Part shown: positions 43,642-63,543 of the stretch, in pieces
Layout of the letters: each line of letters begins with the position of its first letter
Position numbering within the stretch: position 1 is the first letter of the stretch
Source of the DNA: Escherichia phage vB_EcoP-CHD5UKE1
Reading direction: 5' to 3' (one strand)
Length of the DNA: 64,000 nt
Sequence record: NC_070989.1
Program-made: the position numbers and the translations under genes
Notes under the pieces: model-generated
Database searches by the model: none
The model's input: the letters and a program-made list of their open reading frames with translations, nothing else
What the model was told of the DNA's origin: nothing

Positions 43642-44745
43642 TTACAGCGCTTGCTCTAACTGATTTTCCAGATGGTCTGGAATGTACCCTGTGATATTGC
43701 TATCACTGTGACCAGACTCACGTAGTAAGTCAAAAATAGCACGAATACGTTGTTCTGGAGCGTGTCTTACTTGAGATAGGTCTGCTGTACGAAGCATAAC
43801 CAAAATCTCTTGATACAAGTTGTTAGCGTTCCCTCGAACATATCCAAGGAATCCATAGAAGTCTGACATAAGACGTAAGTCAACAAGAACCTCTCCGTTG
43901 GAGTTAGTTCGACGTAAACGAATACGACCAGACTGTTCTACTTCATGAGAACGGCAATACAAAACATCACGGGCCATACAATACCCTGAATGCAAATCAG
44001 ATTCATCCAGATTGTAATCCAGAGGAAGGTAAGGAAGCATTGGGGCAAATCGTACAGTATTTAAGTGCTCAATAAACTGATCATTGCTCATATCTGCGTT
44101 ATCTAAAGCCAGCTTCTTCAACATCAAGAAGCGGTTAACCAGATTGAGAAGTTGACCACGTTTCCACTTAGGCTCACTGATACGGAACTCAATTGAACCG
44201 TATTGGGCAAGTGGCAGAAGGTTCAGAGATGTATATTTATCCCATGAACGAACCAGACGGTTGAAGAATTCTTCACCATCGTAGTTAAATGCGTCAGAGG
44301 CATTCATTACCTGTGCTTGTACCACTGCAAACGCAGGGCAGAAATTGCTACGATAACGATGGTAGCCTGAACACTTGAACAGCATCTTTTCATAGAAGGT
44401 CCAAGCAAGGATGGTCTTCTTGAGGATATTACTATCAGCATCCCTCATATCCATATGAACGTGAGTAGAGCAACGCCAAGTCCCCTCGGCGTGCGATTCA
44501 GCTACTGCTTCACTCAGGTTGTTGATAGCGTCTAACAACTCCTGTCCGTTGTAAGGTCGTGAACATACCATTTCACAACCGTTACGCAGGGAACCATCCT
44601 CTGTGCAATCCCACATATCTGCTTCGATATGTTCAGAACCTTCGAGTTCAAGCTCAATACCGACACCGCACTGAAGTGCAATTGAACTATGCGCCTCAGT
44701 TAAACGACCTTCTCGATATCCAAAAGTTTGCGCTACAGTTGTCAT
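43642..44745 (-). CDS. amidoligase-like protein (glutamine-synthetase/gamma-glutamylcysteine-ligase fold), putative carboxylate-amine ligase
   Basis: GIELELEG, DGSLRNGCE, STHVHMD and GSIEFR motifs resemble the metal/ATP-binding strands of GS-fold amidoligases; assignment from motif memory only. Confidence 0.5.
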   Translation of the reverse strand: MTTVAQTFGYREGRLTEAHSSIALQCGVGIELELEGSEHIEADMWDCTEDGSLRNGCEMVCSRPYNGQELLDAINNLSEAVAESHAEGTWRCSTHVHMDMRDADSNILKKTILAWTFYEKMLFKCSGYHRYRSNFCPAFAVVQAQVMNASDAFNYDGEEFFNRLVRSWDKYTSLNLLPLAQYGSIEFRISEPKWKRGQLLNLVNRFLMLKKLALDNADMSNDQFIEHLNTVRFAPMLPYLPLDYNLDESDLHSGYCMARDVLYCRSHEVEQSGRIRLRRTNSNGEVLVDLRLMSDFYGFLGYVRGNANNLYQEILVMLRTADLSQVRHAPEQRIRAIFDLLRESGHSDSNITGYIPDHLENQLEQAL

Positions 44746-45359
44746 AACGAATCCACCAACGTAATATTATAATTGCTAAGGTTTTCAGAAATGTGATGAA
44801 AGTGTTCCAGAAGTCGCATCGGTTGCTGACCGTAAGAGTCACGAGGTGCTTCCAGATCTACTTGTCCTACCAGTGCACCTTTATAATGCACTTTACCATC
44901 TGTAGGATTGATGTAAATATAACGAGTAACCAATCCATCAAATTCAGGATTGAACAGACTGTAAACCATTTCACCAGAGATAGAACGACCAATCCCCGGA
45001 GCGTTTCGAATCTTGTTACCCATCAAACCCTTCGCTCTCTGACGAACAGGGTTGATATGAGTCCAGCTTACAGTGTTGCCGTTATGGAACAGATAACCAA
45101 CATCAGGTGATTCAAGAATCAAGGTTGGGTCGAACACTGGAATATTCATCGTAGTGTTTCGGAGATTCCCATGCTCATTCTTGTACCACTGCTCTACAAC
45201 AAAGTACAGAGCCTGTTCTGCTTCGTGTGAGAAGTCATCGCTGCGGAAGTTACCGCTCTGCTCAACACCAATCACAAAACACGGAAGGTTGATATTGCCT
45301 GCTCGTTTAGCAATCCATGTACCATTATAGTAATGAGAAAAATCAGCTACTAAGCTCAC
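44742..45359 (-). CDS. hypothetical protein (205 aa), member of the ligase cluster
   Basis: ORF-track ORF; 4-nt overlap with upstream gene; no recognisable motif. Confidence 0.55.
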   Translation of the reverse strand: MSLVADFSHYYNGTWIAKRAGNINLPCFVIGVEQSGNFRSDDFSHEAEQALYFVVEQWYKNEHGNLRNTTMNIPVFDPTLILESPDVGYLFHNGNTVSWTHINPVRQRAKGLMGNKIRNAPGIGRSISGEMVYSLFNPEFDGLVTRYIYINPTDGKVHYKGALVGQVDLEAPRDSYGQQPMRLLEHFHHISENLSNYNITLVDSL

Positions 45360-45368
45360 GATAACCTC

Positions 45369-46175
45369 TTATGCTACCTGAAGGAGTTTGATCTGCTGGT
45401 CAGCTTCTTTAACGTTGTTCCCGTTAATGATTTCATGAAGCTTCTCAATCGGAAGGCGAGAGTGCAATGCCATCAGAGTGGACATATCACACTGCTGAAC
45501 AACCTTGTCAACCTGATCGTAAACAAACTTACGGTTTTCACGATCACTAATCCAGAAGTTAGACAGAGAACGGTACTCAATACCATAGTCTTTATAACGG
45601 ATTGCAGATGCTTTACCGTAGAGTTCTTTACGGCGAGTATCTTTGTCCATAATTACTGCTGGGAGAGACAGGAAGTAGTCACACAGCACACCCAGCATCA
45701 TCTGAGTTTGCAGAGTGATATCCAAAGCACCAACTACGCCAAGATGTACGTGACCACCGGCAGTACGAAGTCCCTTATTCTGAGAAGTCGGGGATGGGTT
45801 TTTCTGACCAGTGAAGGCGTTGAAATCAGGAGTGCACCCGAAGATGAACGCTGATTCATTAAAGGTCTTCATCTCTTCTTCAGTGAAGATGTGAGAGCTA
45901 ACACCCGGAGCTGTTTCCATGTCCAGTTTGTTCAGGACATTATTGGTGAGATCGATACCACGTTGCATGTTATCGTTAAACGCTTCAAAACCGCTCTGTG
46001 GGTCAATATCAAACTCAGCCAGTACGTTGTCCTCTTGGAGACGAACATCCTTAGCCAGAGCGATCTTATCGTCCTTAGAGCAGCCTAATAAACCGGCTAC
46101 AGAAGTGATGATACCATTGCTAGTACGAACAAACATTTCAGGGTCAGAGCCGATAAGGAATTTGCGCTTAGTCAT
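45369..46175 (-). CDS. hypothetical protein, possibly a second glutamine-synthetase-fold ligase
   Basis: GSDPEMFV, GGHVHLGV and YGIEYRS loosely parallel motifs in 43642..44745; weak. Confidence 0.45.
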   Translation of the reverse strand: MTKRKFLIGSDPEMFVRTSNGIITSVAGLLGCSKDDKIALAKDVRLQEDNVLAEFDIDPQSGFEAFNDNMQRGIDLTNNVLNKLDMETAPGVSSHIFTEEEMKTFNESAFIFGCTPDFNAFTGQKNPSPTSQNKGLRTAGGHVHLGVVGALDITLQTQMMLGVLCDYFLSLPAVIMDKDTRRKELYGKASAIRYKDYGIEYRSLSNFWISDRENRKFVYDQVDKVVQQCDMSTLMALHSRLPIEKLHEIINGNNVKEADQQIKLLQVA

Positions 46176-47139
46176 TGTAATACTCCACTAGTTCAGAAAA
46201 GAGAGATGAGATTGTGTTACCAACTTCTTCAAGAGTAAGACCGGAATCTGCTCCAGTTCTTTGAATCAGTCGGGCTGTAAAGTTTTGTACTGTAATGTTT
46301 CCCAACTTGTCGTCTATTGCTTCACGTTTGTGACCATAACAGTTGGACCAGAGTCTTAACCACTCTGACATTGTTTCATACTCGTCCGGGTCTTGATCTT
46401 TAGCACGAGCAAATCTTCGTAAGGCATCTTGGTTATGGTTACGAACATAACCATTCTCGTTGTCGCCAACACCGAAGGGGTTTTGAACCCATACTTGCTT
46501 CGTGTATTCATCAGAGTCTACAACCAAAGGAAGGAATGCTGCTGCTGACATATTGTTGTTAATAACAATAGAGGTGCTCTCACTACTCCCATTGGCTCTT
46601 CCTCGTTGAGACCATCCACCGAAGAAGTCACGACCCAACCCAGCTAACACTAGAGCGATGCCGATGCGTTTACGCTTCAGCCACTCTTCCCTGTCTTCAA
46701 TTCCTTCTGCTAGGAAATCCATTCCACGATATTGCCCTTCCAGAATACTACGAAAGAGCATAAGTCCTGTGAAGATCTGATCTGCTGGATGCTCACGAAG
46801 GTTGACAGCAACACTATTCGCTGAAGTGATCGTAAATACGTCACGATAGCAAGACATGGAGTTCATAATGTCTGCTGTTTCAACCAAGTTCTTTTCAATA
46901 TCAGATGCAACATGACCGTGAAAAGAGTGAGTCCAGTAATTCAACATCTCCAGTTGCAAGTTGATATCACGGTTGAAGCGACGATAACGCCCTTCTTCCG
47001 AGATAACTTCACCATTAATGTCATTTACACACTGGCCTTGCATGTAGTTGTGGATACCGAAGCACCCACGACCTAAGAACTTCTGTTCCCCTAAATCCTG
47101 TTGAAGATTAAGAGGTACGATCGTTGTGGAGATTGACAT
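46168..47139 (-). CDS. hypothetical protein (323 aa), member of the ligase cluster
   Basis: ORF-track ORF; overlaps neighbour by 8 nt. Confidence 0.55.
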   Translation of the reverse strand: MSISTTIVPLNLQQDLGEQKFLGRGCFGIHNYMQGQCVNDINGEVISEEGRYRRFNRDINLQLEMLNYWTHSFHGHVASDIEKNLVETADIMNSMSCYRDVFTITSANSVAVNLREHPADQIFTGLMLFRSILEGQYRGMDFLAEGIEDREEWLKRKRIGIALVLAGLGRDFFGGWSQRGRANGSSESTSIVINNNMSAAAFLPLVVDSDEYTKQVWVQNPFGVGDNENGYVRNHNQDALRRFARAKDQDPDEYETMSEWLRLWSNCYGHKREAIDDKLGNITVQNFTARLIQRTGADSGLTLEEVGNTISSLFSELVEYYND

Positions 47140-47149
47140 AACTAACCTT

Positions 47150-48346
47150 TTATTTTCCTAAAAATAATCCGCTCATAATACCATCCCACTCAGAGGACGG
47201 AATCACTGAATACTCCGAACTTTGGTCCAGAGTTCCGCTACTGAATCGCTGAACAATATTATAAATATTGAACATATCTTTAGTCTCAGCGCGATAAGCG
47301 TAGACTAATCTGTCAGCTGTTCTTTCATCTTTAGATACCCGACGAGCAAAGGTAACCAGAAGATTGTCACCTTTGAGTATTTCTGACTCATCTTTTACTA
47401 GATCAGGGTGCATAACCGGCAAGAACATTGAGTTGTTCACTCGTAACTCTGCTGTTTCATCATTCTCATAATGAATCCATTTAAAATCTTCATCACGAAA
47501 GTGACCGCATCCATCTCTGTATGACTGTTGACGCCAAGGCACTTGAAATGCTTCAGCGTATTTATCAGCCATGCCAACCGTAAATAGTGACGCTGGGAAA
47601 ATACAAGCATCCCAATCGTTACCAACCAGAGTTGCTTTCGTTTCGCCCAAGAGGTTAGTGTAAGTGCTAACCATTCGTGAGTAAACATAAGCCTGAAGGA
47701 TTGTCCAGCCTTCAACCAACCATTTATGGAGGAAGGTTTCAACTTGACTCTCTTCATCTTCACAATAGAAGGTTCGGTCTAACATCAAATAGAACAGACA
47801 ACGATCAGCAGGGATATTCTCAGTTGCTACCCCCATAAAACCTTTATCGTGCCAGCGTAAACAGGAGGGACGATCTTTGTCCACAAATGCTTCCATAGCT
47901 TCCAGTACAGCACGAGGTGTGGTTCGGTGTTCAGGGTTTTTGTCGTTCCAACGTTCGATGTTATTTTTAGGAGGTGTGTCTTCATCTTCATATGAACACC
48001 AACTCAAAGCTTCAGCTACGTGCTTTTCATCACGCCAACGTCTAAAGCCTAACATCTTCATATGAGTTCCAGAGTTCCAGATATGCTTAATACTGCTCAT
48101 ATCCATCTCTCGACTTAATAAGAACTCTTCCCCATCAGCACTACGAACGTTAGCATCTTCATGCCACACTCGAACGTGCATGTTCCATCCATGAGTTGCC
48201 TCATACATGTTAGGGTCGAAGTAGTCATCATCTTCGTCGTCTTCATCAACGCCACCATTATAGTTGCGAAGCTGAAGGAACCCATAACAAGGAGGGTTGA
48301 CCGTTAAAACATTACCTTCAGTATCTTCTAATGTTACTGGAAACAT
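47150..48346 (-). CDS. hypothetical acidic protein (398 aa), member of the ligase cluster
   Basis: ORF-track ORF; Asp/Glu-rich N-terminal region; no recognisable motif. Confidence 0.55.
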   Translation of the reverse strand: MFPVTLEDTEGNVLTVNPPCYGFLQLRNYNGGVDEDDEDDDYFDPNMYEATHGWNMHVRVWHEDANVRSADGEEFLLSREMDMSSIKHIWNSGTHMKMLGFRRWRDEKHVAEALSWCSYEDEDTPPKNNIERWNDKNPEHRTTPRAVLEAMEAFVDKDRPSCLRWHDKGFMGVATENIPADRCLFYLMLDRTFYCEDEESQVETFLHKWLVEGWTILQAYVYSRMVSTYTNLLGETKATLVGNDWDACIFPASLFTVGMADKYAEAFQVPWRQQSYRDGCGHFRDEDFKWIHYENDETAELRVNNSMFLPVMHPDLVKDESEILKGDNLLVTFARRVSKDERTADRLVYAYRAETKDMFNIYNIVQRFSSGTLDQSSEYSVIPSSEWDGIMSGLFLGK

Positions 48347-48357
48347 TATACCAACCT

Positions 48358-49905: not shown

Positions 49906-50022
49906 TTATTTAGCTACCTTTTTCTGTCCGTTTACGAACCAGATAATTGAACCGTCAGGCTGTCGTTGACCGAAGCCTTTCTGGTTAATCATATCGTCAT
50001 AAGAATATGCTTTACGTCTCAT
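49906..50022 (-). CDS. small hypothetical protein (38 aa)
   Basis: Hand-translated; ATGA overlap with upstream stop. Confidence 0.3.
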   Translation of the reverse strand: MRRKAYSYDDMINQKGFGQRQPDGSIIWFVNGQKKVAK

Positions 50023-50279
50023 TTGTTTTCCTGTGGAGTTAAGATAATTTCAGCTTTACTAAACTTCTCACCAACAACCATATCACCAGAGATGACACGC
50101 AGTTCTCCAGTGCCTAAGTTAACAGCTCCAGCAGGTTGACAGCCCCTGCTCTTAGCTGTAAGCATATAAATCTTTTGATCCTTACATTCTTGGAGTGTGA
50201 ATACGTCAGCCATGCTTAGGTCTTTAACATGGAGGATTATTTCCTCCTTGCTTTTAACTTTAATGTGAATAGTGCTCAT
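50019..50279 (-). CDS. small early protein, paralogue family A
   Basis: Shares the L..(G)D.F...(hydrophobic)...VNL..G pattern with eight or more other ~70-87-aa ORFs. Confidence 0.5.
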   Translation of the reverse strand: MSTIHIKVKSKEEIILHVKDLSMADVFTLQECKDQKIYMLTAKSRGCQPAGAVNLGTGELRVISGDMVVGEKFSKAEIILTPQENK

Positions 50280-50281
50280 GA

Positions 50282-50527
50282 TTACTCCTGAACCACTGAC
50301 ATACGAATCACTTCAACTGGGGCATCACTTTTCATAACACCTAATACACCAGTAAGAAGATTAACTGTCGTAATCCAACCATCTTCTACAGAGATTTTGT
50401 TGGACACATTATTGACACGGATGTAATACTGAGGGGATGCCGTTCCTCTCTGAATTACGAAAGGGTTTCCGGGAATAATTGTAGCCAGTGAAACCGTGTT
50501 ATCTTTAATCTTTGGGATGATCTTCAT
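50282..50527 (-). CDS. small early protein, paralogue family A
   Basis: Family pattern (PGNPFVI...TTVNLLTG). Confidence 0.5.
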   Translation of the reverse strand: MKIIPKIKDNTVSLATIIPGNPFVIQRGTASPQYYIRVNNVSNKISVEDGWITTVNLLTGVLGVMKSDAPVEVIRMSVVQE

Positions 50528-50778
50528 TTAGAGTCCTTAATAACGTTAGCTTCAACCTTAACAGGAATAACAGAGATACCCTCAACAGGACCACTCAAAC
50601 TTCCATCTTCCAGCCTGACACACACGACTCGATCTCGTGCAACTTCCACCCAATTAGTAGATGCCGCAGTACAAACCATGTGGATTGGACCATTCTCTTC
50701 CAGTCGGAAGGTATCACCCTTCTTCAGAGTGTGGAGCTTTGCTGTCTTGATGGTTTTGTTCAACTCGTTAACTTTCAT
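50524..50778 (-). CDS. small early protein, paralogue family A
   Basis: Family pattern (LKKGDTFRLEE...VCVRLEDGS). Confidence 0.5.
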   Translation of the reverse strand: MKVNELNKTIKTAKLHTLKKGDTFRLEENGPIHMVCTAASTNWVEVARDRVVCVRLEDGSLSGPVEGISVIPVKVEANVIKDSK

Positions 50779-50786
50779 ATTGATTC

Positions 50787-51098
50787 CTATTTAAGTTTGA
50801 GGCTAATATTAAGGTGCATACATGCCCTGTTCTGTACAGCAGCATAACTTCTACCGAGCATGTCAGCCATTCTCTGAATAGACATGAACCCAGCATTACG
50901 GATAAGGAACTGGTCTTCTTCTTCAGACCACTTAACTCGGATTGAAGCTCTTGATATTCCGAACTTAGTGCAAGCTGTGTTAACAGCATTCTCCGTTACA
51001 TTCATAATCTGAGCAACTTCTTGAACCGAGTACTCTTTGATCAATCTCCGAAGATTTTCAATCTGCATCGGAGTCCATATAGTTCTTCGTGCTTTCAT
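50787..51098 (-). CDS. putative DNA-binding regulator with two tandem HTH-like repeats
   Basis: Repeats WTPMQIENLRRLIKEYSVQEVAQIMNVTENAVNTA and WSEEEDQFLIRNAGFMSIQRMADMLGRSYAAVQNRA; start set at internal ATG 51098. Confidence 0.45.
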   Translation of the reverse strand: MKARRTIWTPMQIENLRRLIKEYSVQEVAQIMNVTENAVNTACTKFGISRASIRVKWSEEEDQFLIRNAGFMSIQRMADMLGRSYAAVQNRACMHLNISLKLK

Positions 51099-51388
51099 AC
51101 ATCCTCCAATTAAACATTTATATAAGACTTGCTTAGATAAAGATTCAATAAAATAGGGGGAGGGGACGAATCCTCCCATATCCTATTAATTAAGTTTGCA
51201 TGTAAGATCTAACAATCGGTTGCCTTTGTAGGAATAGGTGTAAAGCCAATCCAGCACTAAACTCCCGCCCCCTTAGTGGGCTGGGTTATTAAAGGGTAAC
51301 GCCCTTATGGGCTAGTTACATGAATGTTAGTTTGATAGGAGATCTGAAGTCCTATCTCAAAGGACTCTCGTAAGAATCCTTCACGATA

Positions 51389-51520
51389 TTACTTATTCAT
51401 TTTTCGTCGGCTATCTCTCCAAGCCAACCAAGTGTAGGTTTTCAACTCTTCTAAACTTTCTGGAGTGAAGAGATAATCTTTGAAGGTGTTTCCAAACCAC
51501 TCTAAAAACTCTTTAGTCAT
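51389..51520 (-). CDS. small hypothetical protein (start uncertain)
   Basis: ORF-track ORF 51389..51658 trimmed to internal ATG to avoid overlap with the membrane-protein ORF. Confidence 0.35.
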   Translation of the reverse strand: MTKEFLEWFGNTFKDYLFTPESLEELKTYTWLAWRDSRRKMNK

Positions 51521-51528
51521 AGAACCTC

Positions 51529-51777
51529 TTATTTTCTTGCGGGAAGAATTATATCCCACAACCCTGCCCACAAAACAAGGGATATAAAAATCACAGCAAT
51601 GATGGGCCATAGAAAAACTATAATTGCTATCTTTGATAGGTTTGGTTCGTTGCTCCATCCTCTGAACTCCACACTACCTTTTACGTCAAGGAATTTTATC
51701 AGAGCTGAAACTATCACCATACCTGTCAAGTAGACAATCAAGATACTAACAGGACTGATCACAAGGTTGATCTCCAC
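51529..51777 (-). CDS. small membrane protein (2 TM segments)
   Basis: Hydrophobic helices ILIVYLTGMVIVSALI and IAIIVFLWPIIAVIFISLVLWAGLW; start codon ambiguous (GTG at 51777 or ATG at 51720). Confidence 0.5.
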   Translation of the reverse strand: MEINLVISPVSILIVYLTGMVIVSALIKFLDVKGSVEFRGWSNEPNLSKIAIIVFLWPIIAVIFISLVLWAGLWDIILPARK

Positions 51778-51919
51778 ATGTTTTACAGATCACTGGTGAG
51801 TAACTACAGGCAGGGTATACAGACACCCCATCCCATGTCTCACATCCACAATCAGGACATGTACCGTTGGATTCCATGTCATCATCGTCATCTACTTCAC
51901 CGCCACCAAAACAACTCAT
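51746..51919 (-). CDS. small Cys-rich acidic protein (57 aa)
   Basis: Hand-translated; 11 Cys in CPDCGCE/CKTCGDQPCDQSC arrangement; RBS AGGGAG. Confidence 0.35.
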   Translation of the reverse strand: MSCFGGGEVDDDDDMESNGTCPDCGCETWDGVSVYPACSYSPVICKTCGDQPCDQSC

Positions 51920-51928
51920 ACAGACTCC

Positions 51929-52150
51929 CTAATAAACTAAACCTACAGCCTTTGCATCAGGTTGAGGGACTACCTTTGCGCTAGGGCGATAACCATCCAC
52001 TGAACCGTTCCAAAGATTGACACAGGTGACATATCCATCGTTTATGATGTCTGTTTTAATCCAGAAGTGTTTATCATGACCAAAAATACTTCCGTTTGGC
52101 AGAGTGGACAGCTCAACGGTTTTAAGCGACTGCTTAGAGTCTAGTTTCAT
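51929..52150 (-). CDS. small early protein, paralogue family A
   Basis: Family pattern (LPNGSIFGHD...VTCVNLWNGS). Confidence 0.5.
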   Translation of the reverse strand: MKLDSKQSLKTVELSTLPNGSIFGHDKHFWIKTDIINDGYVTCVNLWNGSVDGYRPSAKVVPQPDAKAVGLVY

Positions 52151-52157
52151 AATAACC

Positions 52158-52406
52158 TCAATTATCGTAGCATGTATTCCAATACATGTAGTTAACGTAC
52201 GTTCTCGGTTTGATTCCGTACATGATGAAGTGAGTCTTCTTAATCCTTTCCTTCAGCGTGTAATAAAGGCCATCACTGAAGTTACCAATCTTTACTTGGA
52301 AGCGTAAGGAGCGAGCATCCATTCGAAGCATAGAGATTAGCTGTACCCTACTACCTCCAGCCATCTCTTCAAGAAGCTTCTTTGTATTCCAATAATGAGC
52401 TGTCAT
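52158..52406 (-). CDS. small hypothetical protein (82 aa)
   Basis: ORF-track ORF. Confidence 0.5.
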   Translation of the reverse strand: MTAHYWNTKKLLEEMAGGSRVQLISMLRMDARSLRFQVKIGNFSDGLYYTLKERIKKTHFIMYGIKPRTYVNYMYWNTCYDN

Positions 52407-52407
52407 A

Positions 52408-52689
52408 TTACCACTCCTTACCGGTTGTTGTTACAGAACCACCACACCACTGCGCATCGGATAAGGTTTTAGTCTCCTCATCTACTGCTGCACCATTCAG
52501 GCATGAGATACCACTGTAACGCATATCAATTTCACCAGAATGAACCTTCTCGCCCTTATGCCAGCGAGAAACACAAACACCTTCCACTGCTACTGCACAC
52601 CATCCATCAGGACGGCTCTGTACGCAGCCTGTAAGGGCCACACAGACAAGGAAGATACAGATTAAGGATATTACACCACCCCAACTCAT
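52408..52689 (-). CDS. putative lipoprotein (93 aa)
   Basis: Signal peptide with lipobox LTGC (ISLICIFLVCVALTGCVQS); RBS AGGAGG. Confidence 0.55.
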   Translation of the reverse strand: MSWGGVISLICIFLVCVALTGCVQSRPDGWCAVAVEGVCVSRWHKGEKVHSGEIDMRYSGISCLNGAAVDEETKTLSDAQWCGGSVTTTGKEW

Positions 52690-52834
52690 AACTACCTCCT
52701 ATTTGATTTGGTGGACTATCTGGAATCGAACCAGAAGCTCACTAAGAAAGTAATTCCCACTGTTATAAAAGCACTTGCCTCAACAGGGATACACTAACTC
52801 TGGTGCCGTACCCATACTAGCCCTTGTTTAAAAT

Positions 52835-52910
52835 TGGTCGGGACGGAAGGATTCGAACCCTCGTAAGGCGAGTTAGAAGCTCGCTGCCTGTTCCACTAGA
52901 CTACGCCCCG
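52835..52910 (-). tRNA. tRNA-Arg (anticodon UCU), 76 nt with encoded CCA
   Basis: Cloverleaf folded by hand: acceptor CGGGGCG/CGTCCCG (one G-U), D-stem GTCT/AGGC, anticodon stem GCGAG/CTCGC with loop CTTCTAA, T-stem GAGGG/CCTTC with loop TTCGAAT, discriminator A, CCA. Confidence 0.8.
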
Positions 52911-53323
52911 ATAGATTTGAAACCGTTATACTTACCTGCACATGATCTGTTACAAAAAGAATTTGCATATTTAACATTTCGCTTTTCTTTTTCAAAAGAT
53001 CTTCCACAATAAGAGCAAACAACTGAAATCATTGTTCTTCCAGTAGTTGCTTCTAATGTTGACTTCTTTCTGTGATTTTCTATGGAAAGTATCTGAAGAT
53101 TAGATATGTCATCATTAGTTTTATTTCTGTCAATATGATCAACCTCCTCGTCTTCAGTTAGGTACCTGCCTATGTGACAAGACATTAAATATCTTGCGTA
53201 AGAAATGGTTGTCCTCTCCGTGTCGGTATTATACAAATCAACACGCTTCCTACCGTCTCTGCTTGTTCTTAAGTAGCCCAATCGCCAGTCATTAACGAAG
53301 GGGTATTCTAACTCTATCTTCAA
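52901..53323 (-). CDS. HNH homing endonuclease
   Basis: EEVDHIDRNKTNDDISNLQILSIENHRKK HNH core plus C-terminal Cys cluster; stop codon lies within the tRNA 5' acceptor stem. Confidence 0.7.
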   Translation of the reverse strand: MKIELEYPFVNDWRLGYLRTSRDGRKRVDLYNTDTERTTISYARYLMSCHIGRYLTEDEEVDHIDRNKTNDDISNLQILSIENHRKKSTLEATTGRTMISVVCSYCGRSFEKEKRNVKYANSFCNRSCAGKYNGFKSIGA

Positions 53324-53357
53324 AACCCCTCCATTGAGCTAAGGGTGCTGAGTTTGT

Positions 53358-53567
53358 TTAACTAAAGATACGCAAGGCCACATCGTGACCGATATGACCG
53401 GGAACTTTATGCTGTTCTATTTTCAAACAGCGCTTACAGACACGAGATACACTAGACTCTTTTCTCTCGACTGGAGTGTCTTTAGCGTGAGTGATTTGAA
53501 GGTTTTCAGTGATCACCCACTCGTGTTTACATCCAGAATCTTCGGGCTTTTTCTTACGAAAGAACAT
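53358..53567 (-). CDS. small zinc-ribbon protein, tandem paralogue (family B)
   Basis: CKHEW...CKRC pattern; ORF-track ORF trimmed to internal ATG 53567. Confidence 0.45.
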   Translation of the reverse strand: MFFRKKKPEDSGCKHEWVITENLQITHAKDTPVERKESSVSRVCKRCLKIEQHKVPGHIGHDVALRIFS

Positions 53568-53575
53568 AACACCCC

Positions 53576-53740
53576 TTAGATCAGATCTGTTTTCTTGTGC
53601 AGACCACAAACTTTACAGCGAGAGTAGATACGCAACCCTTGTCGCTCTCTGTCAGTAAGTTTATTTGTGATCGTCAGTTCATAAGTAGAAAGATCTTCCC
53701 ACTCATGGAAATGAAAGAAGCGTTTGAACCATTTGATCAT
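53576..53740 (-). CDS. small zinc-ribbon protein, tandem paralogue (family B)
   Basis: Hand-translated 54-aa ORF MIKWFKRFFHFHEW...CKVCG, paralogous to neighbours. Confidence 0.4.
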   Translation of the reverse strand: MIKWFKRFFHFHEWEDLSTYELTITNKLTDRERQGLRIYSRCKVCGLHKKTDLI

Positions 53741-53749
53741 AATGATTCC

Positions 53750-53911
53750 TTAGATTACATCACGATGACTAACATCACCACACACCTTACACTGAATAAC
53801 GTAACGTGTGCCCTTGTCATTATTCCCATCTGAATCTGTATAGACCAGAGGGCGAGTATCAATAATCTTCCAATCATGACAATGAAAGACACGCTTTAGC
53901 CACTTGAACAT
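53750..53911 (-). CDS. small zinc-ribbon protein, tandem paralogue (family B)
   Basis: MFKWLKRVFHCHDW...CKVCG; ORF-track ORF trimmed to internal ATG 53911. Confidence 0.45.
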   Translation of the reverse strand: MFKWLKRVFHCHDWKIIDTRPLVYTDSDGNNDKGTRYVIQCKVCGDVSHRDVI

Positions 53912-53918
53912 ATTAACC

Positions 53919-54170
53919 TCAAGCACAAGCAGGGAGGGTGATGATCTTATACTGACCTTCAAACTCTCCAAATAAACCTAAGAATGTAGGACTGTAAGTA
54001 CCAGTACAAACAAACTCATCAAACAGTGCGTTATAGCTAGGCTTAATCTTCCAAGCCCATACATAACCCATCTTGTCAATTGCAATGTAACGAGTGTTCA
54101 GAGGAACAGTCATCATCACATCATCAACTTCAATCACTTTAGTTATCGGTGCAGCTTGGAAGTTTTTCAT
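53919..54170 (-). CDS. small hypothetical protein
   Basis: ORF-track ORF 53919..54218 trimmed to the ATG adjacent to the upstream stop. Confidence 0.45.
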   Translation of the reverse strand: MKNFQAAPITKVIEVDDVMMTVPLNTRYIAIDKMGYVWAWKIKPSYNALFDEFVCTGTYSPTFLGLFGEFEGQYKIITLPACA

Positions 54171-54391
54171 CCTACTCTCCTGACGTTTAGGGTAGCTTGA
54201 TAAAATTTGACAGGACAACTTCTATCAAACGTAAATCTTGTTTCAGGGTTATTTATACAGATAGCATGTCTGTGCATAACCTTCATATATAAAGGAGGTT
54301 TTGTATCACCATCTATCTCTAGAGAGAACACATCACCATTACGGAGGCTGCCAAAAGTGTTATCTTTAGGCTCAGAGCGAACGATAATCAT
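54167..54391 (-). CDS. small early protein, paralogue family A
   Basis: Family pattern (LRNGDVFSLEIDGD...). Confidence 0.5.
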   Translation of the reverse strand: MIIVRSEPKDNTFGSLRNGDVFSLEIDGDTKPPLYMKVMHRHAICINNPETRFTFDRSCPVKFYQATLNVRRVG

Positions 54392-54564
54392 ACTTTACCT
54401 TTGATAAAAAGGTCATTACCACAGACATAGCATGAACGAACAACAGTAGCGCCACGCTGAACAATACGAACCTCTTCCTTAACCAGACTAATACGAGCAC
54501 CGCAGCAAGGGGAGTTGACATAAGAGTAACCAGCTTGCGTATGTTTGATTGTTTGCTTAGACAT
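54388..54564 (-). CDS. small zinc-ribbon protein (58 aa)
   Basis: Hand-translated; CC...C-x2-C; RBS AGAGGAAG; ATGA-type overlap with downstream gene; preceded by terminator. Confidence 0.4.
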   Translation of the reverse strand: MSKQTIKHTQAGYSYVNSPCCGARISLVKEEVRIVQRGATVVRSCYVCGNDLFIKGKV

Positions 54565-54607
54565 TTTAGCTTCCTCTTGTTAGTTTAAGTAAGAGCTGAC
54601 CCTTAAT

Positions 54608-54639
54608 TAAAACAACAAAGGCCACCCGAAGGCAGCCTC
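54608..54639 (-). terminator. rho-independent terminator (minus strand)
   Basis: aggctgcc-ttcg-ggtggcct followed by TTGTTGTTTT on the minus strand. Confidence 0.6.
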
Positions 54640-54642
54640 TCT

Positions 54643-54852
54643 TTATTGACTCACACCACGAATCAGATGATTCTGTAGCATTTCGTCTTCTGCATTATAC
54701 AGGAATGCAAACATCAACTCCTTAGCCACATCTCTTGAGCAATTAAGACACTTAGAGATTTGAGTTAGTTGCATGTTACGTTCAGTGTGTTCCATCAAGG
54801 CAATGCGAATGATCTCTCGCATACCTATTACATGAACTGTTTTAACCGGCAT
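54643..54852 (-). CDS. small hypothetical protein (start uncertain)
   Basis: ORF-track ORF 54643..54894 trimmed to internal ATG; an upstream 46-aa ORF (54842..54982) overlaps in another frame. Confidence 0.4.
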   Translation of the reverse strand: MPVKTVHVIGMREIIRIALMEHTERNMQLTQISKCLNCSRDVAKELMFAFLYNAEDEMLQNHLIRGVSQ

Positions 54853-55340
54853 AGGTCCAATTGCCTTGCTTGTTACGGATGGCTGACATTGCATGAATCC
54901 AGAAGCCTTCCAGTTTCAGAGCACCATTAGCTACTGCATCCATACGTTCAGGGCGGTTCATACGTTTGGTTGATACTTTCATACCTATCTCTCTTTGTTA
55001 GTGGAGGCATTATTGCCAGTTGATATAAGGGGTAGCCCTAGTCAGTAGACTAATCCTGACCGCGTACTCATTGCCGACCTTCTCTGCCTAAGAGTTCAGG
55101 TTCTAGAGCTATCTCTTATTCCAACTGGTGAAGACTCCCTACCCCTAGGAAGTCTCCTGAATCCCAAACCAATATGTACCCCTACATATCAGAAAGTCTT
55201 TCGAAAATTAACAGGTTTTAGTCTAACACCGGATGTTCGAGCAAGCTCTCCCTAGCGGTGTGGCATATGCCTGAATTAATAAGTTAATGAGGAACACCCT
55301 CACATAGCCCTCTGATAAACACAAGGGCTATAAGTCGGCG

Positions 55341-55559
55341 TTACTTTTGGGATAAACACAGATCAGGACGTGGCATAACAGTGGTTGATAGGCCGAAGAC
55401 TTCAACATAACCACTGTTCAAGTTAGCAGCTTTACACAGACCATCAGGGGTTTTATCTTCTAGCATCAGCCAGAAACGTCTATCGTAAGAGAAAACATCA
55501 CCACCCTTAACATCTTCTGCATTTGCATATTTAGGATAATCAACTACTTTAATTTCCAT
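55341..55559 (-). CDS. small early protein, paralogue family A
   Basis: Family pattern (VKGGDVFSYDRRFWLML...AANLNSG). Confidence 0.5.
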   Translation of the reverse strand: MEIKVVDYPKYANAEDVKGGDVFSYDRRFWLMLEDKTPDGLCKAANLNSGYVEVFGLSTTVMPRPDLCLSQK

Positions 55560-55569
55560 CTAATTGCCC

Positions 55570-55788
55570 TTATTGATAAATAGAAAGGTGGATAAGTTTA
55601 TTCACATGAGCGAAGTTAGGTAGGATTTGCATCTCATTGTTGAAGATATTAAAACAACGAACCCCGCCCTCTACAGCATAAGCAGATTTCTGAAACAGAC
55701 TACCTCCCCACACAAATACATCATGTGTTTCAAGAGATCGTAACTGAACAGCCTCGTCAACAACCTTCTTTTCAATGTTCATAATCAC
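55570..55788 (-). CDS. small early protein, paralogue family A
   Basis: Family pattern (LETHDVFVWGG...). Confidence 0.5.
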   Translation of the reverse strand: MIMNIEKKVVDEAVQLRSLETHDVFVWGGSLFQKSAYAVEGGVRCFNIFNNEMQILPNFAHVNKLIHLSIYQ

Positions 55789-56039
55789 TTCCGATTAGTA
55801 ATAACAACGTCATGAAGAAGAACAACCTTGCTTTTCGAGCTGAGCTTAAGGACTTGCTTGTTTGTTAGACTAAGGACGACACAACCACCATCAGAAGGCT
55901 TAGTCTCCTCGACCTGCGATCTAAACAGGTGAACAACCATGTAGAAATCTGCTCGTGTTTCCCTGATTTGGAATACATCTCCAAGTTTGAGATCACCAAC
56001 ACACAAAGACGGTTCATTTACTTCAAGATTAATCTTCAT
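55785..56039 (-). CDS. small early protein, paralogue family A
   Basis: Family pattern (LKLGDVFQIRETRADFYMVVHLF...). Confidence 0.5.
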   Translation of the reverse strand: MKINLEVNEPSLCVGDLKLGDVFQIRETRADFYMVVHLFRSQVEETKPSDGGCVVLSLTNKQVLKLSSKSKVVLLHDVVITNRK

Positions 56040-56292
56040 CTTTAACCTCTACCTCTACGTTGGTTATGTGGAGATCATTACGAACTTGGCAGACCTCATT
56101 TCGGTTAATAGGGACAAGCTTTCCATAGACCACATCAACGCATTTAACATGATAATCAGATGTTGAGTCTGTTCTGATATAGAGTTTTTCTCGGAAAGAA
56201 AACAAAACTCCCGGCCTCATGTTATTTAAACGAAGGTGATGGCCTGTTTCTTGGATATTAACTTTCACTGTTGATCTCCTGCTGTTTAGCAA
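56029..56292 (-). CDS. small early protein, paralogue family A (start uncertain)
   Basis: Family pattern (MRPGVLFSFREKLYIRTD...); 5' end overlaps the upstream ORF. Confidence 0.45.
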   Translation of the reverse strand: MLNSRRSTVKVNIQETGHHLRLNNMRPGVLFSFREKLYIRTDSTSDYHVKCVDVVYGKLVPINRNEVCQVRNDLHITNVEVEVKDED

Positions 56293-56554
56293 TAGCTACT
56301 CGCAAGTCTTCATTAGCACGAGCAAGGCGTTTAACTTCATGATCAAGGCTGATAAGGCGCTTGTTTCTGTCTTCAACTTGCATAATAAGATCGTTGAGTG
56401 TTACTTTAACTTTCTCATTATACATCTCATCTACTCGGACAAGAGATTTATACATTCTCTCCCAGCTTGCTGCTTTGTTTCTTAGGATAATAAATCCTAG
56501 AACGCTGATAGTTAAACAGATTACAAAAAGGAATTTATATACTTCTAAAGTCAT
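56258..56554 (-). CDS. small membrane-anchored coiled-coil protein
   Basis: N-terminal TM LFVICLTISVLGFIIL then charged helical region. Confidence 0.5.
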   Translation of the reverse strand: MTLEVYKFLFVICLTISVLGFIILRNKAASWERMYKSLVRVDEMYNEKVKVTLNDLIMQVEDRNKRLISLDHEVKRLARANEDLRVAIAKQQEINSES

Positions 56555-58595: not shown

Positions 58596-58632
58596 TAAAA
58601 GAAAAGGCGCTACCCATTAAGATAGCGCCTTA
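58596..58632 (-). terminator. rho-independent terminator (minus strand)
   Basis: aaggcgcta-(loop)-tagcgcctt followed by TTTTCTTTT on the minus strand. Confidence 0.6.
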
Positions 58633-63515: not shown

Positions 63516-63543
63516 ACTATATATTAAAGGAAAAGGCTGTCAA
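63516..63543 (-). promoter_or_regulatory. sigma70-type promoter (minus strand): -35 TTGACA, 16-bp spacer, -10 TATAGT
   Basis: Read on the minus strand: TTGACA-gccttttcctttaata-TATAGT, about 45 nt upstream of ATG 63471. Confidence 0.55.

What the first reader, a model, noticed from the sequence alone, without database searches (positions are those of the whole stretch)
50019..56292. Expanded family of about nine paralogous small early proteins (70-87 aa)
ORFs at 50019, 50282, 50524, 51929, 54167, 55341, 55570, 55785 and 56029 share a common architecture: a conserved L-x-x-G-D-x-F (or close variant) near residue 15-25, a hydrophobic beta-like stretch, and a V-N-L-x-x-G-type segment. They are tightly packed, often with 4-nt ATGA overlaps. 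Such diversified arrays of small early proteins in phages are typical of host-takeover or anti-defence functions, each paralogue possibly targeting a different host factor.
Basis: seen in the sequence. Interest (0 to 1): 0.55.

Follow-up and report, generated by a model that had tools for sequence, protein, structure and literature searches.

The report
Nine small barrel-protein paralogues, phage early region
Nine small genes in the early region of this phiEco32-like E. coli phage are true relatives, each predicted to fold as a tiny SH3-like beta-barrel, and they belong to a large, widespread but unnamed and unstudied phage protein family that probably acts by binding host molecules, although that function is not shown.

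Summary
The window is a Kuravirus (phiEco32-like; 96.8% identical to phage Bas91). All nine ORFs lie on the minus strand in the sigma-70-transcribed early region.

- **Paralogy:** in leave-one-out profile searches against all 489 six-frame ORFs, each omitted copy was the best hit outside the training set (E 2e-10 to 0.086). A profile built only from distant non-Kuravirus relatives found exactly these nine (E 1e-19 to 1e-7; next ORF 0.33).
- **Family:** at least 1,344 clusters at 50% identity, including N4 gp21. It has no Pfam, NCBIfam or PDB-sequence match and is split over about ten PHROGs of unknown function.
- **Variation:** seven Kuravirus genomes carry 7-10 copies each, of 14 types. Copies show median 66% identity against 97% for neighbouring genes, yet pairwise dN/dS stays at or below 0.52.

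Function is inferred only. The copies are most likely non-enzymatic binders for host takeover or counter-defence (about 0.5). Nucleic-acid binding is the main rival. I rate this a new sequence family of a known fold, of moderate interest.

The parts
50019..50279 (-). Paralogue 1, 86 aa (PHROG 12612; phiEco32 gp95 type)
   Evidence: Leave-one-out E 4.6e-5. Distant-relative HMM E 1.4e-12. Its stop overlaps the next ORF's ATG (ATGA).
50282..50527 (-). Paralogue 2, 81 aa (PHROG 7431; phiEco32 gp96 type)
   Evidence: Leave-one-out E 1.4e-3. Distant HMM E 3.4e-13. Its ATG overlaps the stop of paralogue 3 (ATGA).
50524..50778 (-). Paralogue 3, 84 aa (PHROG 7832)
   Evidence: Leave-one-out E 1.3e-4. 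Distant HMM E 1e-14. In phiEco32 and NJ01 this slot holds a different family type (28-29% identity).
51929..52150 (-). Paralogue 4, 73 aa (PHROG 6570; phiEco32 gp104); the most central member
54167..54391 (-). Paralogue 5, 74 aa (PHROG 10911; phiEco32 gp109); the most divergent member, lacking N-L-x-x-G
55341..55559 (-). Paralogue 6, 72 aa (PHROG 6570; phiEco32 gp113); the only clearly acidic copy (pI 4.9)
   Evidence: phmmer E 4e-9 to paralogue 4. Leave-one-out E 1.4e-4. Distant HMM E 3.8e-15. pI.
55570..55782 (-).
   Evidence: Weakest leave-one-out hit (E 0.086) but still the top hit outside the training set. Distant HMM E 7.7e-10. Start read from the sequence and matching the 70-aa form in Bas91 and P0014. 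Present only in Bas91 and NJ01 of six relatives.
55785..56039 (-). Paralogue 8, 84 aa (PHROG 9955; phiEco32 gp114 type)
   Evidence: Leave-one-out E 1.7e-6. Distant HMM E 1.9e-10. ATG preceded by GAGG; 11-nt overlap with paralogue 9.
56029..56268 (-).
   Evidence: Leave-one-out E 6.7e-4. Distant HMM E 7.1e-13. GTG follows GGAG plus 7 nt and gives the family-typical N-terminus M-K-V, as in the 77-aa orthologue P0001.

Best explanation
The nine ORFs are genuine, expressed-type paralogous genes on the minus strand of the early, host-RNA-polymerase-transcribed region of a Kuravirus (phiEco32-like podovirus).

Each encodes a single-domain, soluble protein of about 70-86 aa, predicted to fold as an SH3-like small beta-barrel. 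The N-terminal 'M-K-I' strand and a C-terminal strand add to the barrel. They belong to a large, unnamed superfamily of mostly stand-alone phage proteins, which includes N4 gp21.

The conserved positions are mostly hydrophobic and glycine residues lying in the predicted strands and tight turns. That these form the barrel core is my reading; no solvent accessibility was computed. The remaining positions and the beta2-beta3 loop vary freely in sequence and length. No catalytic or cofactor motif is conserved.

Inferred mechanism, not shown: each copy is a non-enzymatic binder that attaches stoichiometrically to a particular host (or phage) macromolecule soon after infection, for host takeover or counter-defence. 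The phage lineage keeps a changeable repertoire of such binders by exchanging, gaining and losing cassettes.
For: Shown:
- Paralogy.
- Coding under purifying selection, pairwise dN/dS 0-0.52.
- Superfamily size: 1,344 representatives at E<=1e-3, mostly 66-90 aa and full-length.
- Conservation falls mainly on hydrophobic and glycine positions.
- Location downstream of strong sigma-70-like promoters at 63543, 60989 and 60503, in the block classed as early and 'likely host takeover' in phiEco32 (PMC8948821; PMC9965538).
- Repertoire turnover: 7-10 copies per genome, 14 types in 7 genomes. Median identity is 66% with 7 of 45 slots empty, against 97% for neighbouring genes (Mann-Whitney p 3.5e-10).

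Supporting the binder reading:
- The family is acidic overall (median pI 5.05; 77% below 6), which does not suit generic nucleic-acid binding.
- Tandem arrays and two-domain fusions recur in unrelated phage contigs.
- Gordonclarkvirinae are reported as highly resistant to the tested defence systems (PMC11990801).
Against: - No member has any experimental function, and no target is known.
- There is no match to any anti-defence protein, though no such library was available.
- dN/dS below 1 gives no gene-wide positive-selection signal.
- A Bacteroidota chromosomal protein fuses five lysine/arginine-rich copies (read from the sequence) to a SprT-like protease, a context that hints at nucleic-acid binding by analogy with eukaryotic SprT-type proteases, which act on DNA-protein crosslinks (my own knowledge).
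- The defence resistance of these phages may instead come from DNA modification.
Confidence: 0.5

Rival explanations
1. The proteins are small nucleic-acid-binding regulators. As SH3-like/KOW-like barrels they would bind RNA or DNA (phage or host transcripts, ribosome, replication intermediates) to modulate translation, transcript stability or DNA metabolism.
For: - Best structural neighbours are the RNA-binding barrels of ribosomal protein L2, EF-P/eIF5A domain I and Spt5 KOW.
- Six of nine copies here have pI 7.8-9.2.
- Five lysine/arginine-rich repeats of the domain are fused to a SprT-like metalloprotease in a Bacteroidota chromosome.
Against: - The superfamily is predominantly acidic (median pI 5.05, median charge -3.4, only 7% with pI above 8).
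- No conserved basic or aromatic surface motif was found; the conserved polar positions are D, K/R, T and N, with no basic cluster.
- There is no sequence match to KOW, S1, Sm or any Pfam nucleic-acid-binding family.
Confidence: 0.2
2. The copies serve the phage's own machinery, as adaptors or chaperones for phage replication, modification or assembly proteins. Alternatively they are dispensable cargo carried along by recombination in the early region, with little role against the host.
For: - Individual types are dispensable among close relatives.
- Members sit next to replication genes in other contigs: a helicase in L012 and a protein-primed DNA polymerase in the phi29-like L007.
- N4 gp21 lies beyond the RNAPII genes, in what I take to be the middle rather than the immediate-early region (my own reading of N4 gene order).
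Against: - Five types are present in all seven genomes compared, and all types show purifying selection.
- The family persists in at least 1,344 clusters across very different phages, which argues for selected function.
- The early position and small size are typical of host-directed factors (PMC8948821).
Confidence: 0.2
3. They bind host RNA polymerase, as the Tudor/KOW-like domains of CarD, Mfd or UvrD do, to redirect transcription.
Against: [quoted passage not shown]
- gp79 is present in this window (39643-39888, 100% identical) and is not a family member (score -1.0 bits).
- There is no sequence match to the CarD/TRCF or KOW families.
Confidence: 0.05
4. The resemblance is a composition or short-ORF artefact, and the ORFs are unrelated or non-coding.
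For: Most pairwise identities are only 12-29%, and most pairwise E-values are not significant.
Against: Leave-one-out ranking, the distant-relative HMM, PHROG cross-hits, matching folds and dN/dS below 1 all contradict it.
Confidence: 0.01

Closest known systems
PHROG families 6570, 7832, 7431, 8365, 16423, 12612, 9955, 10911, 33163 and 34455 (all 'unknown function'), and N4 gp21
   Same: These are the same proteins. Each of the nine hits its own PHROG at E 1e-26 to 1e-54 with cross-hits between them. Distant members hit up to nine of them. The N4 gp21 homologue scores E 7e-18 with the family HMM.
   Different: PHROGs splits the superfamily into about ten separate families and gives no function or fold. 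I found nothing published on N4 gp21.
SH3-like small beta-barrel fold: ribosomal protein L2 C-terminal domain, EF-P/eIF5A domain I, KOW, Tudor, FeoA
   Different: Sequence identity is 4-17% for the neighbours named here (the highest of any listed hit is 20%, VapX), there is no Pfam match, and Z never reaches 8. The proteins are stand-alone, phage-encoded, mostly acidic, and carry extra N- and C-terminal strands.
Nip of Bacillus phage Phi3T, the counter-defence inhibitor of the SpbK TIR NADase (PMC11984713)
   Same: A phage protein built on SH3-like domains that works by binding a host defence protein. This is a precedent for the proposed mode of action.
   Different: Nip is 279 aa, with two SH3-like domains plus an HU-like dimerisation domain. 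Homology to this family was not tested and is not suggested by any search here.
VapX antitoxin of Haemophilus influenzae VapXD (PDB 6zn8)
   Different: No toxin-like partner gene stood out among the neighbouring ORFs or their annotations in related phages, though the neighbours were not scanned against family libraries. The similarity is within the generic range for the fold.
DUF7244 stand-alone SH3 protein of the Drexlerviridae lysis module (PMC13164509)
   Same: A stand-alone SH3-clan protein encoded by coliphages.
   Different: That family lies beside the endolysin and is proposed to aid lysis. The present genes are in the early region, far from lysis genes, and give no Pfam hit of any kind.
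phiEco32 gp79, the small RNAP-binding transcription switch (PMC12276001)
   Same: A small (82 aa) non-structural protein of the same phage group that acts purely by binding a host machine.
   Different: It is described through its alpha-helices (alpha1) and hydrophobic grooves in the paper, is 100% conserved here (window 39643-39888), and scores -1.0 bits with the family HMM.

Membership tests
One paralogous family among the nine ORFs (the finding itself) | Each ORF is recovered by a profile built without it, ahead of all unrelated ORFs of the window | tested here: met
   In leave-one-out searches every omitted copy ranked first after the training set, with E 2.4e-10 to 0.086 against 0.11-1.1 for the best unrelated ORF.
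One paralogous family among the nine ORFs (the finding itself) | Each ORF matches a profile built only from distant relatives outside the Kuravirus orthologue groups | tested here: met
   An HMM of 122 representatives hit all nine at E 1e-19 to 9.6e-8, with the next ORF at 0.33. Caveat: those representatives were themselves recruited with a profile that contained the nine.
One paralogous family among the nine ORFs (the finding itself) | Signature motifs L-x-x-G-D-x-F and V-N-L-x-x-G | tested here: inconclusive
   F is invariant. A full G-D occurs in 4 of 9 (A-D, G-N, G-S, H-D and G-V in the others). A full N-L-x-x-G occurs in 4 of 9, is partial in 4, and is absent in 54167. The motifs are strong family-wide.
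SH3-like small beta-barrel fold | Five-stranded, highly bent antiparallel barrel | tested here: met
KOW / Tudor / bacterial SH3 / DUF7244 sequence families (Pfam) | Profile match at or near the Pfam gathering threshold | tested here: not met
   None of the nine gives a relevant hit at E<=1. Among 131 superfamily members no Pfam family is hit by more than 2 members.
phiEco32 gp79-type RNA polymerase regulators | Sequence similarity to gp79 and a helical fold | tested here: not met
   gp79 scores -1.0 bits with the family HMM, and the window's own gp79 gene lies elsewhere (39643-39888). gp79 is described as helical in PMC12276001, whereas these proteins are predicted to be all-beta.
Known anti-defence proteins (Ocr, Tad, Gad, Acr, Nip and others) | Homology to a characterised anti-defence family | not testable with these tools
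   No anti-defence library is available. PADLOC (defence proteins) gave no hit, and PHROG categories are all 'unknown function'.
VapX-type antitoxins | Adjacent cognate toxin gene and specific similarity to VapX | tested here: inconclusive
Early (host-RNAP-transcribed) gene class of phiEco32-like phages | Position in the leftward-transcribed right-hand block shown to be early in phiEco32 | tested here: met
   The orthologues are phiEco32 gp95-98, 104, 109 and 113-115, inside the early block described in PMC8948821 and PMC9965538. Strong sigma-70-like promoters lie upstream on the same strand. Expression timing of this phage itself was not measured.

The most novel reading that the evidence does not exclude
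The superfamily is a phage-wide, hypervariable 'binder scaffold'. On one SH3-like barrel chassis, phages evolve and exchange many specificities, each neutralising a different host immunity or housekeeping protein. The 7-10-copy, 14-type repertoire of Kuraviruses would then be a main cause of their unusually broad resistance to defence systems. If true, more than a thousand uncharacterised clusters (including N4 gp21) would become a single searchable class of inhibitors with predictable architecture.
Probability: 0.15. Interest if true: 0.75.

Novelty: new variant of a known kind. Interest (0 to 1): 0.42.

Why it matters
Small early phage proteins are the main source of host-takeover and anti-defence inhibitors, yet most are orphans.

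This work joins about ten 'unknown' PHROGs and at least 1,344 protein clusters into one SH3-like barrel superfamily. The family has a clear signature, a confident fold model and a natural experiment: 14 interchangeable types in otherwise near-identical, culturable E. coli phages, including BASEL phages Bas89-91 and the model phages phiEco32 and N4.

That makes the function directly testable by deletion, expression and pull-down. It also gives annotators a reason to remove spurious labels now attached to members, such as 'endolysin' and 'two-domain glycosyltransferase'.

Tried and rejected
- **Library scans.** Pfam, NCBIfam and PADLOC scans of the nine gave nothing relevant. A Pfam scan of 131 superfamily members gave no family hit by more than two members.
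- **PDB by sequence.** A profile search gave only chance matches to antibody heavy chains (E at least 0.12).
- **Word-indexed protein search.** Both the nine-sequence and the 131-sequence alignments returned almost only Kuravirus orthologues. The exhaustive profile search was what revealed the superfamily.
- **The search for related loci.** I therefore could not measure copy number per genome across IMG/VR.
- **Giant ORFs among the hits.** P0111 and P0113 (2,667 and 3,223 aa, in phage-like contigs) contain several weak dispersed copies of the motif. P0220 sits on a 6.9-Mb contig that I take to be eukaryotic and gives repeated partial hits at E about 3e-3 each, probably spurious. None clarified function.
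- **gp79 as a member.** Rejected.
- **Literature.** Searches for phiEco32 early-protein toxicity, N4 gp21, and SH3-like anti-defence proteins found no functional data on any member.
- **Recent tandem duplication.** Considered and rejected as the origin of the two clusters. The closest pair (51929 and 55341, 36% identity) is 3.4 kb apart, and adjacent copies are no more alike than distant ones.
Full report
**What the window is.** The 6.3-kb region is 96.8% identical to Escherichia phage LorandFenyves (Bas91). It is about 90-96% identical to vB_EcoP_SU10 and many other Kuravirus (phiEco32-like, Gordonclarkvirinae) podoviruses. In Bas91 and phiEco32 the corresponding genes are all annotated 'hypothetical protein'. 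In phiEco32 they are gp95-98, gp104, gp109 and gp113-115.

**Checking the observation.** All nine ORFs exist at the stated coordinates, all on the minus strand. A plain multiple alignment gives only 12-22% identity to the first sequence and one invariant residue, a Phe. Most pairwise phmmer/BLAST E-values are not significant; the exception is 51929 against 55341 (E 4e-9). I therefore tested the family claim in three ways that do not depend on judging by eye.

- *Leave-one-out.* I built an HMM from eight copies and searched all 489 six-frame ORFs of at least 35 aa in the window. The omitted copy was always the first hit after the training set. E-values ran from 2.4e-10 to 1.4e-3 for eight copies and 0.086 for 55570. 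The best unrelated ORF scored 0.11-1.1.
- *Distant-relative profile.* An HMM built from 122 representatives, none close to any of the nine (under 40% identity over 50 or more residues), recovered all nine at E 1e-19 to 9.6e-8. The next ORF scored 0.33, so the window holds exactly nine members. The caveat is that those representatives were recruited with a profile containing the nine.
- *PHROGs.* Each copy hits its own PHROG strongly, and seven of the nine also cross-hit another copy's PHROG at E<=0.01. Distant members hit nine of the nine copies' PHROGs.

Family-wide frequencies are G 97%, D 63% and F 100%, then V 81%, N 59%, L 85% and G 93%. Within this window only the Phe is invariant.

*Corrections to the gene models.*
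- The likely start of the 56029 gene is GTG at 56268, preceded by GGAG. This gives 79 aa beginning M-K-V, like the rest of the family.
- The 55570 gene most likely starts at ATG 55782 (70 aa).
- ATGA overlaps are real at three junctions. Elsewhere there is an 11-nt overlap or a short gap.

**Are they real genes?** Pairwise Nei-Gojobori dN/dS between each window copy and its orthologues in six other Kuraviruses is 0-0.52, mostly 0.03-0.38. Plausible Shine-Dalgarno sequences precede the starts I inspected.

**Fold.** I modelled the most central copy (51929) and the most divergent copy (54167) separately.
- 51929 has mean pLDDT 79.6, about 88 in the core.
- 54167 has pLDDT 91.3 and pTM 0.77.

Both show five core beta-strands in the same order relative to the motifs. 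G-D-x-F lies in strand 1, Y/W-M/I-K-T in strand 2, and C-V-N-L in strand 3, followed by a Gly turn. The conserved Val lies in strand 5. The better model adds N- and C-terminal strands, which fits the conserved 'M-K-I' start and 'A-x-L-x-I' end.

Foldseek against BFVD returns only uncharacterised phage proteins of about 60-90 aa. These include other Kuravirus paralogue types (EP335 twice, LAMP, SU7) at TM 0.69-0.76. They also include proteins from Cronobacter, Morganella, Vibrio, Erwinia, Serratia, Proteus, Providencia, Yersinia, Dickeya and Pseudomonas phages. The refutation criterion of 'unrelated folds' is therefore not met.

**How big is the family?** An exhaustive profile search of 1.84 billion cluster representatives found 1,344 with E<=1e-3. 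The top hits are nearly all 66-90 aa, align end to end, and show the same motif pattern.

A consensus-sequence tblastn finds members in 382 cultured-phage records: Vibrio phages of about 114-130 kb, Proteus Privateervirus, Cronobacter phages, and N4-like phages, where the gene is N4 gp21. One member lies in a phi29-like 14-kb contig.

Tandem arrangements recur elsewhere. Proteus phage 3H10_20 has two adjacent copies. One metagenomic contig has three adjacent genes carrying four domains next to a helicase. Two-domain proteins of 126-201 aa are also common among the hits.

One cellular context appeared: a Bacteroidota chromosomal protein with an N-terminal SprT-like metalloprotease and five lysine/arginine-rich repeats of the domain.

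The family has no Pfam, NCBIfam, PADLOC or PDB-sequence match. PHROGs lists it as about ten separate families of unknown function. I found no paper describing a function for any member.

**Variation among relatives.** Scanning the early regions of Bas91, phiEco32, NJ01, SR02, IMEP8 and Ptacy1479 gives 8, 9, 10, 8, 7 and 10 copies. Together with the window that makes 61 members, falling into 14 types at 40% identity or more.
- Five types are in all seven genomes.
- Others are sporadic: the 54167 type occurs in 3 of 7 genomes and the 55570 type in 3 of 7.
- Some occur once (phiEco32 gp98; one type each in SR02 and Ptacy1479).
- A slot can hold a different type in different phages: position 50524 carries a copy only 28-29% identical in phiEco32 and NJ01.

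Across five relatives, family slots have median 66% identity with 7 of 45 empty. Neighbouring early genes have median 97% (Mann-Whitney p 3.5e-10). Some 'absent' neighbour entries for NJ01 reflect the end of the fetched locus, not true absence.

Divergent alleles have saturated dS (0.7 to above 4) with dN/dS around 0.1-0.4. The pattern looks like exchange of old, individually constrained cassettes rather than recent rapid change. The two clusters are also not recent tandem duplicates, since the closest pair is 3.4 kb apart.

**Context.** The genes lie downstream, on the same strand, of three near-consensus sigma-70-type promoters at 63543, 60989 and 60503 (11 of 12 matches). They sit within the block experimentally classed as early in phiEco32, which that literature describes as the most diverse and 'likely' devoted to host takeover (PMC8948821; PMC9965538).

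RNA polymerase purified from phiEco32-infected cells carried only gp36 and gp79 (PMC12276001). The gp79 gene is in this window at 39643-39888, is 100% identical to phiEco32 gp79, and is unrelated to the family.

**How it most likely works.**
- *Shown:* a real, expanded, exchangeable family of stand-alone SH3-like barrels in the early region.
- *Inferred:* the proteins are non-enzymatic binders. The conserved positions are mainly hydrophobic or glycine. No catalytic or metal-binding motif is conserved. The beta2-beta3 loop and most other positions vary. The family is acidic overall (median pI 5.05), which fits protein binding better than generic nucleic-acid binding.

Early timing, dispensability of individual types and repertoire turnover fit host-directed or defence-directed roles. 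Gordonclarkvirinae are reported to be highly resistant to the tested defence systems (PMC11990801), although DNA modification may explain that instead. I put this reading at about 0.5.

The main rival is nucleic-acid binding, at about 0.2. It is supported by the RNA-binding nature of the best structural neighbours, the mildly basic pI of six copies here, and the SprT fusion. A role within the phage's own machinery, or near-neutral cargo, is about 0.2. RNA polymerase binding is about 0.05. An artefact is about 0.01.

**Comparison with known systems and novelty.** The fold is known. The sequence family is not described or named anywhere I could search, and it fails the tested membership criteria for KOW, Tudor, SH3 and DUF7244 (Pfam) and for gp79. 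The functional analogies (Nip, VapX) are precedents only.

I classify it as a new variant of a known kind: a new superfamily on the SH3-like scaffold, within the familiar category of small early phage proteins. Interest is moderate. Nothing here overturns expectations. The size of the family, its presence in tractable model phages (phiEco32, N4, BASEL Bas89-91) and the natural cassette variation make an experimental answer readily reachable.

Noticed in passing
window 53358-53971, minus strand (ORFs ending at 53358, 53576 and 53750): A second, smaller paralogous set. Three adjacent small ORFs share M-x-K-W-x-K-R-x-F-H-x-H-[ED]-W, then about 25 aa, then C-K-[VR]-C, which looks like a four-ligand zinc ribbon. 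They too are highly variable among Kuraviruses: the 53576 and 53750 copies are 39-59% identical across five relatives, and the 53358 copy is missing from four of six, while their neighbours are over 90% identical.
   Followed up: partly
window 52835-52910 (tRNA) and 52901-53323 (ORF), minus strand: A tRNA-Arg (anticodon TCT) whose 5' end overlaps by about 10 nt the end of a 140-aa HNH-type homing endonuclease ORF. Of the six compared Kuraviruses only Bas91 has this endonuclease here, which suggests a recent mobile insertion beside the tRNA.
   Followed up: partly
L005 7752-7985 (IMEP8 gp111), L003 1479-1697 (NJ01_132); window 56258-56554 equivalent in Bas91 and phiEco32: GenBank labels on these tiny proteins look spurious. 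A 77-aa family member is annotated 'endolysin' in IMEP8. A 72-aa member is annotated 'putative two-domain glycosyltransferase' in NJ01. The neighbouring 98-aa ORF is annotated 'DNA helicase' in Bas91 and phiEco32.
   Followed up: partly
L009 3583-5019 / L010 6001-7437 (protein P0106): A Bacteroidota chromosomal gene next to SusC/SusD, LpxK and sugar-nucleotide genes. It encodes a SprT-like metalloprotease followed by five lysine/arginine-rich tandem repeats of the same SH3-like domain. This is the only clearly cellular, multidomain context seen for the family.
   Followed up: partly
L015 2001-11672 (P0113, 3,223 aa) and L016 2001-10004 (P0111, 2,667 aa): Giant single ORFs in phage-like metagenomic contigs (27 kb and 124 kb). 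They have essentially no Pfam domains and carry several dispersed, weak copies of the L-x-P-G-D-x-F ... N-L-x-T-G unit. Their nature (virion-injected polyvalent protein?) is unknown.
   Followed up: partly
window 63543-63516, 60989-60961 and 60503-60475, minus strand: Three near-consensus sigma-70-type promoters (11 of 12 hexamer matches) pointing leftward into the early block, plus strong terminator-like hairpins at 58631, 57303, 57218 and 54640. These are candidates for the early transcription units of this phage.
   Followed up: no
window about 44300-48350, minus strand (equivalents of Bas91_0079-0083 and phiEco32 gp84-88): A highly conserved (89-100% identical) cluster annotated in relatives as amidoligase and COOH-NH2 ligase, followed by two unannotated genes, with a glutamine amidotransferase upstream in relatives. 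It suggests a peptide-ligation or modification pathway of unknown substrate in these phages.
   Followed up: no
window 39643-39888, minus strand: The gene for the RNAP-binding transcription switch gp79 is present and 100% identical in protein sequence to phiEco32 gp79. This contrasts sharply with the variability of the nine paralogues.
   Followed up: yes
alignment of 131 superfamily members (all131 / A3): The first three residues are unusually conserved for a small protein family: M 100%, K 69%, I/V 96%. In the better model residues 2-4 form a strand, but an effect on translation initiation (AAA second codon) is also possible.
   Followed up: no
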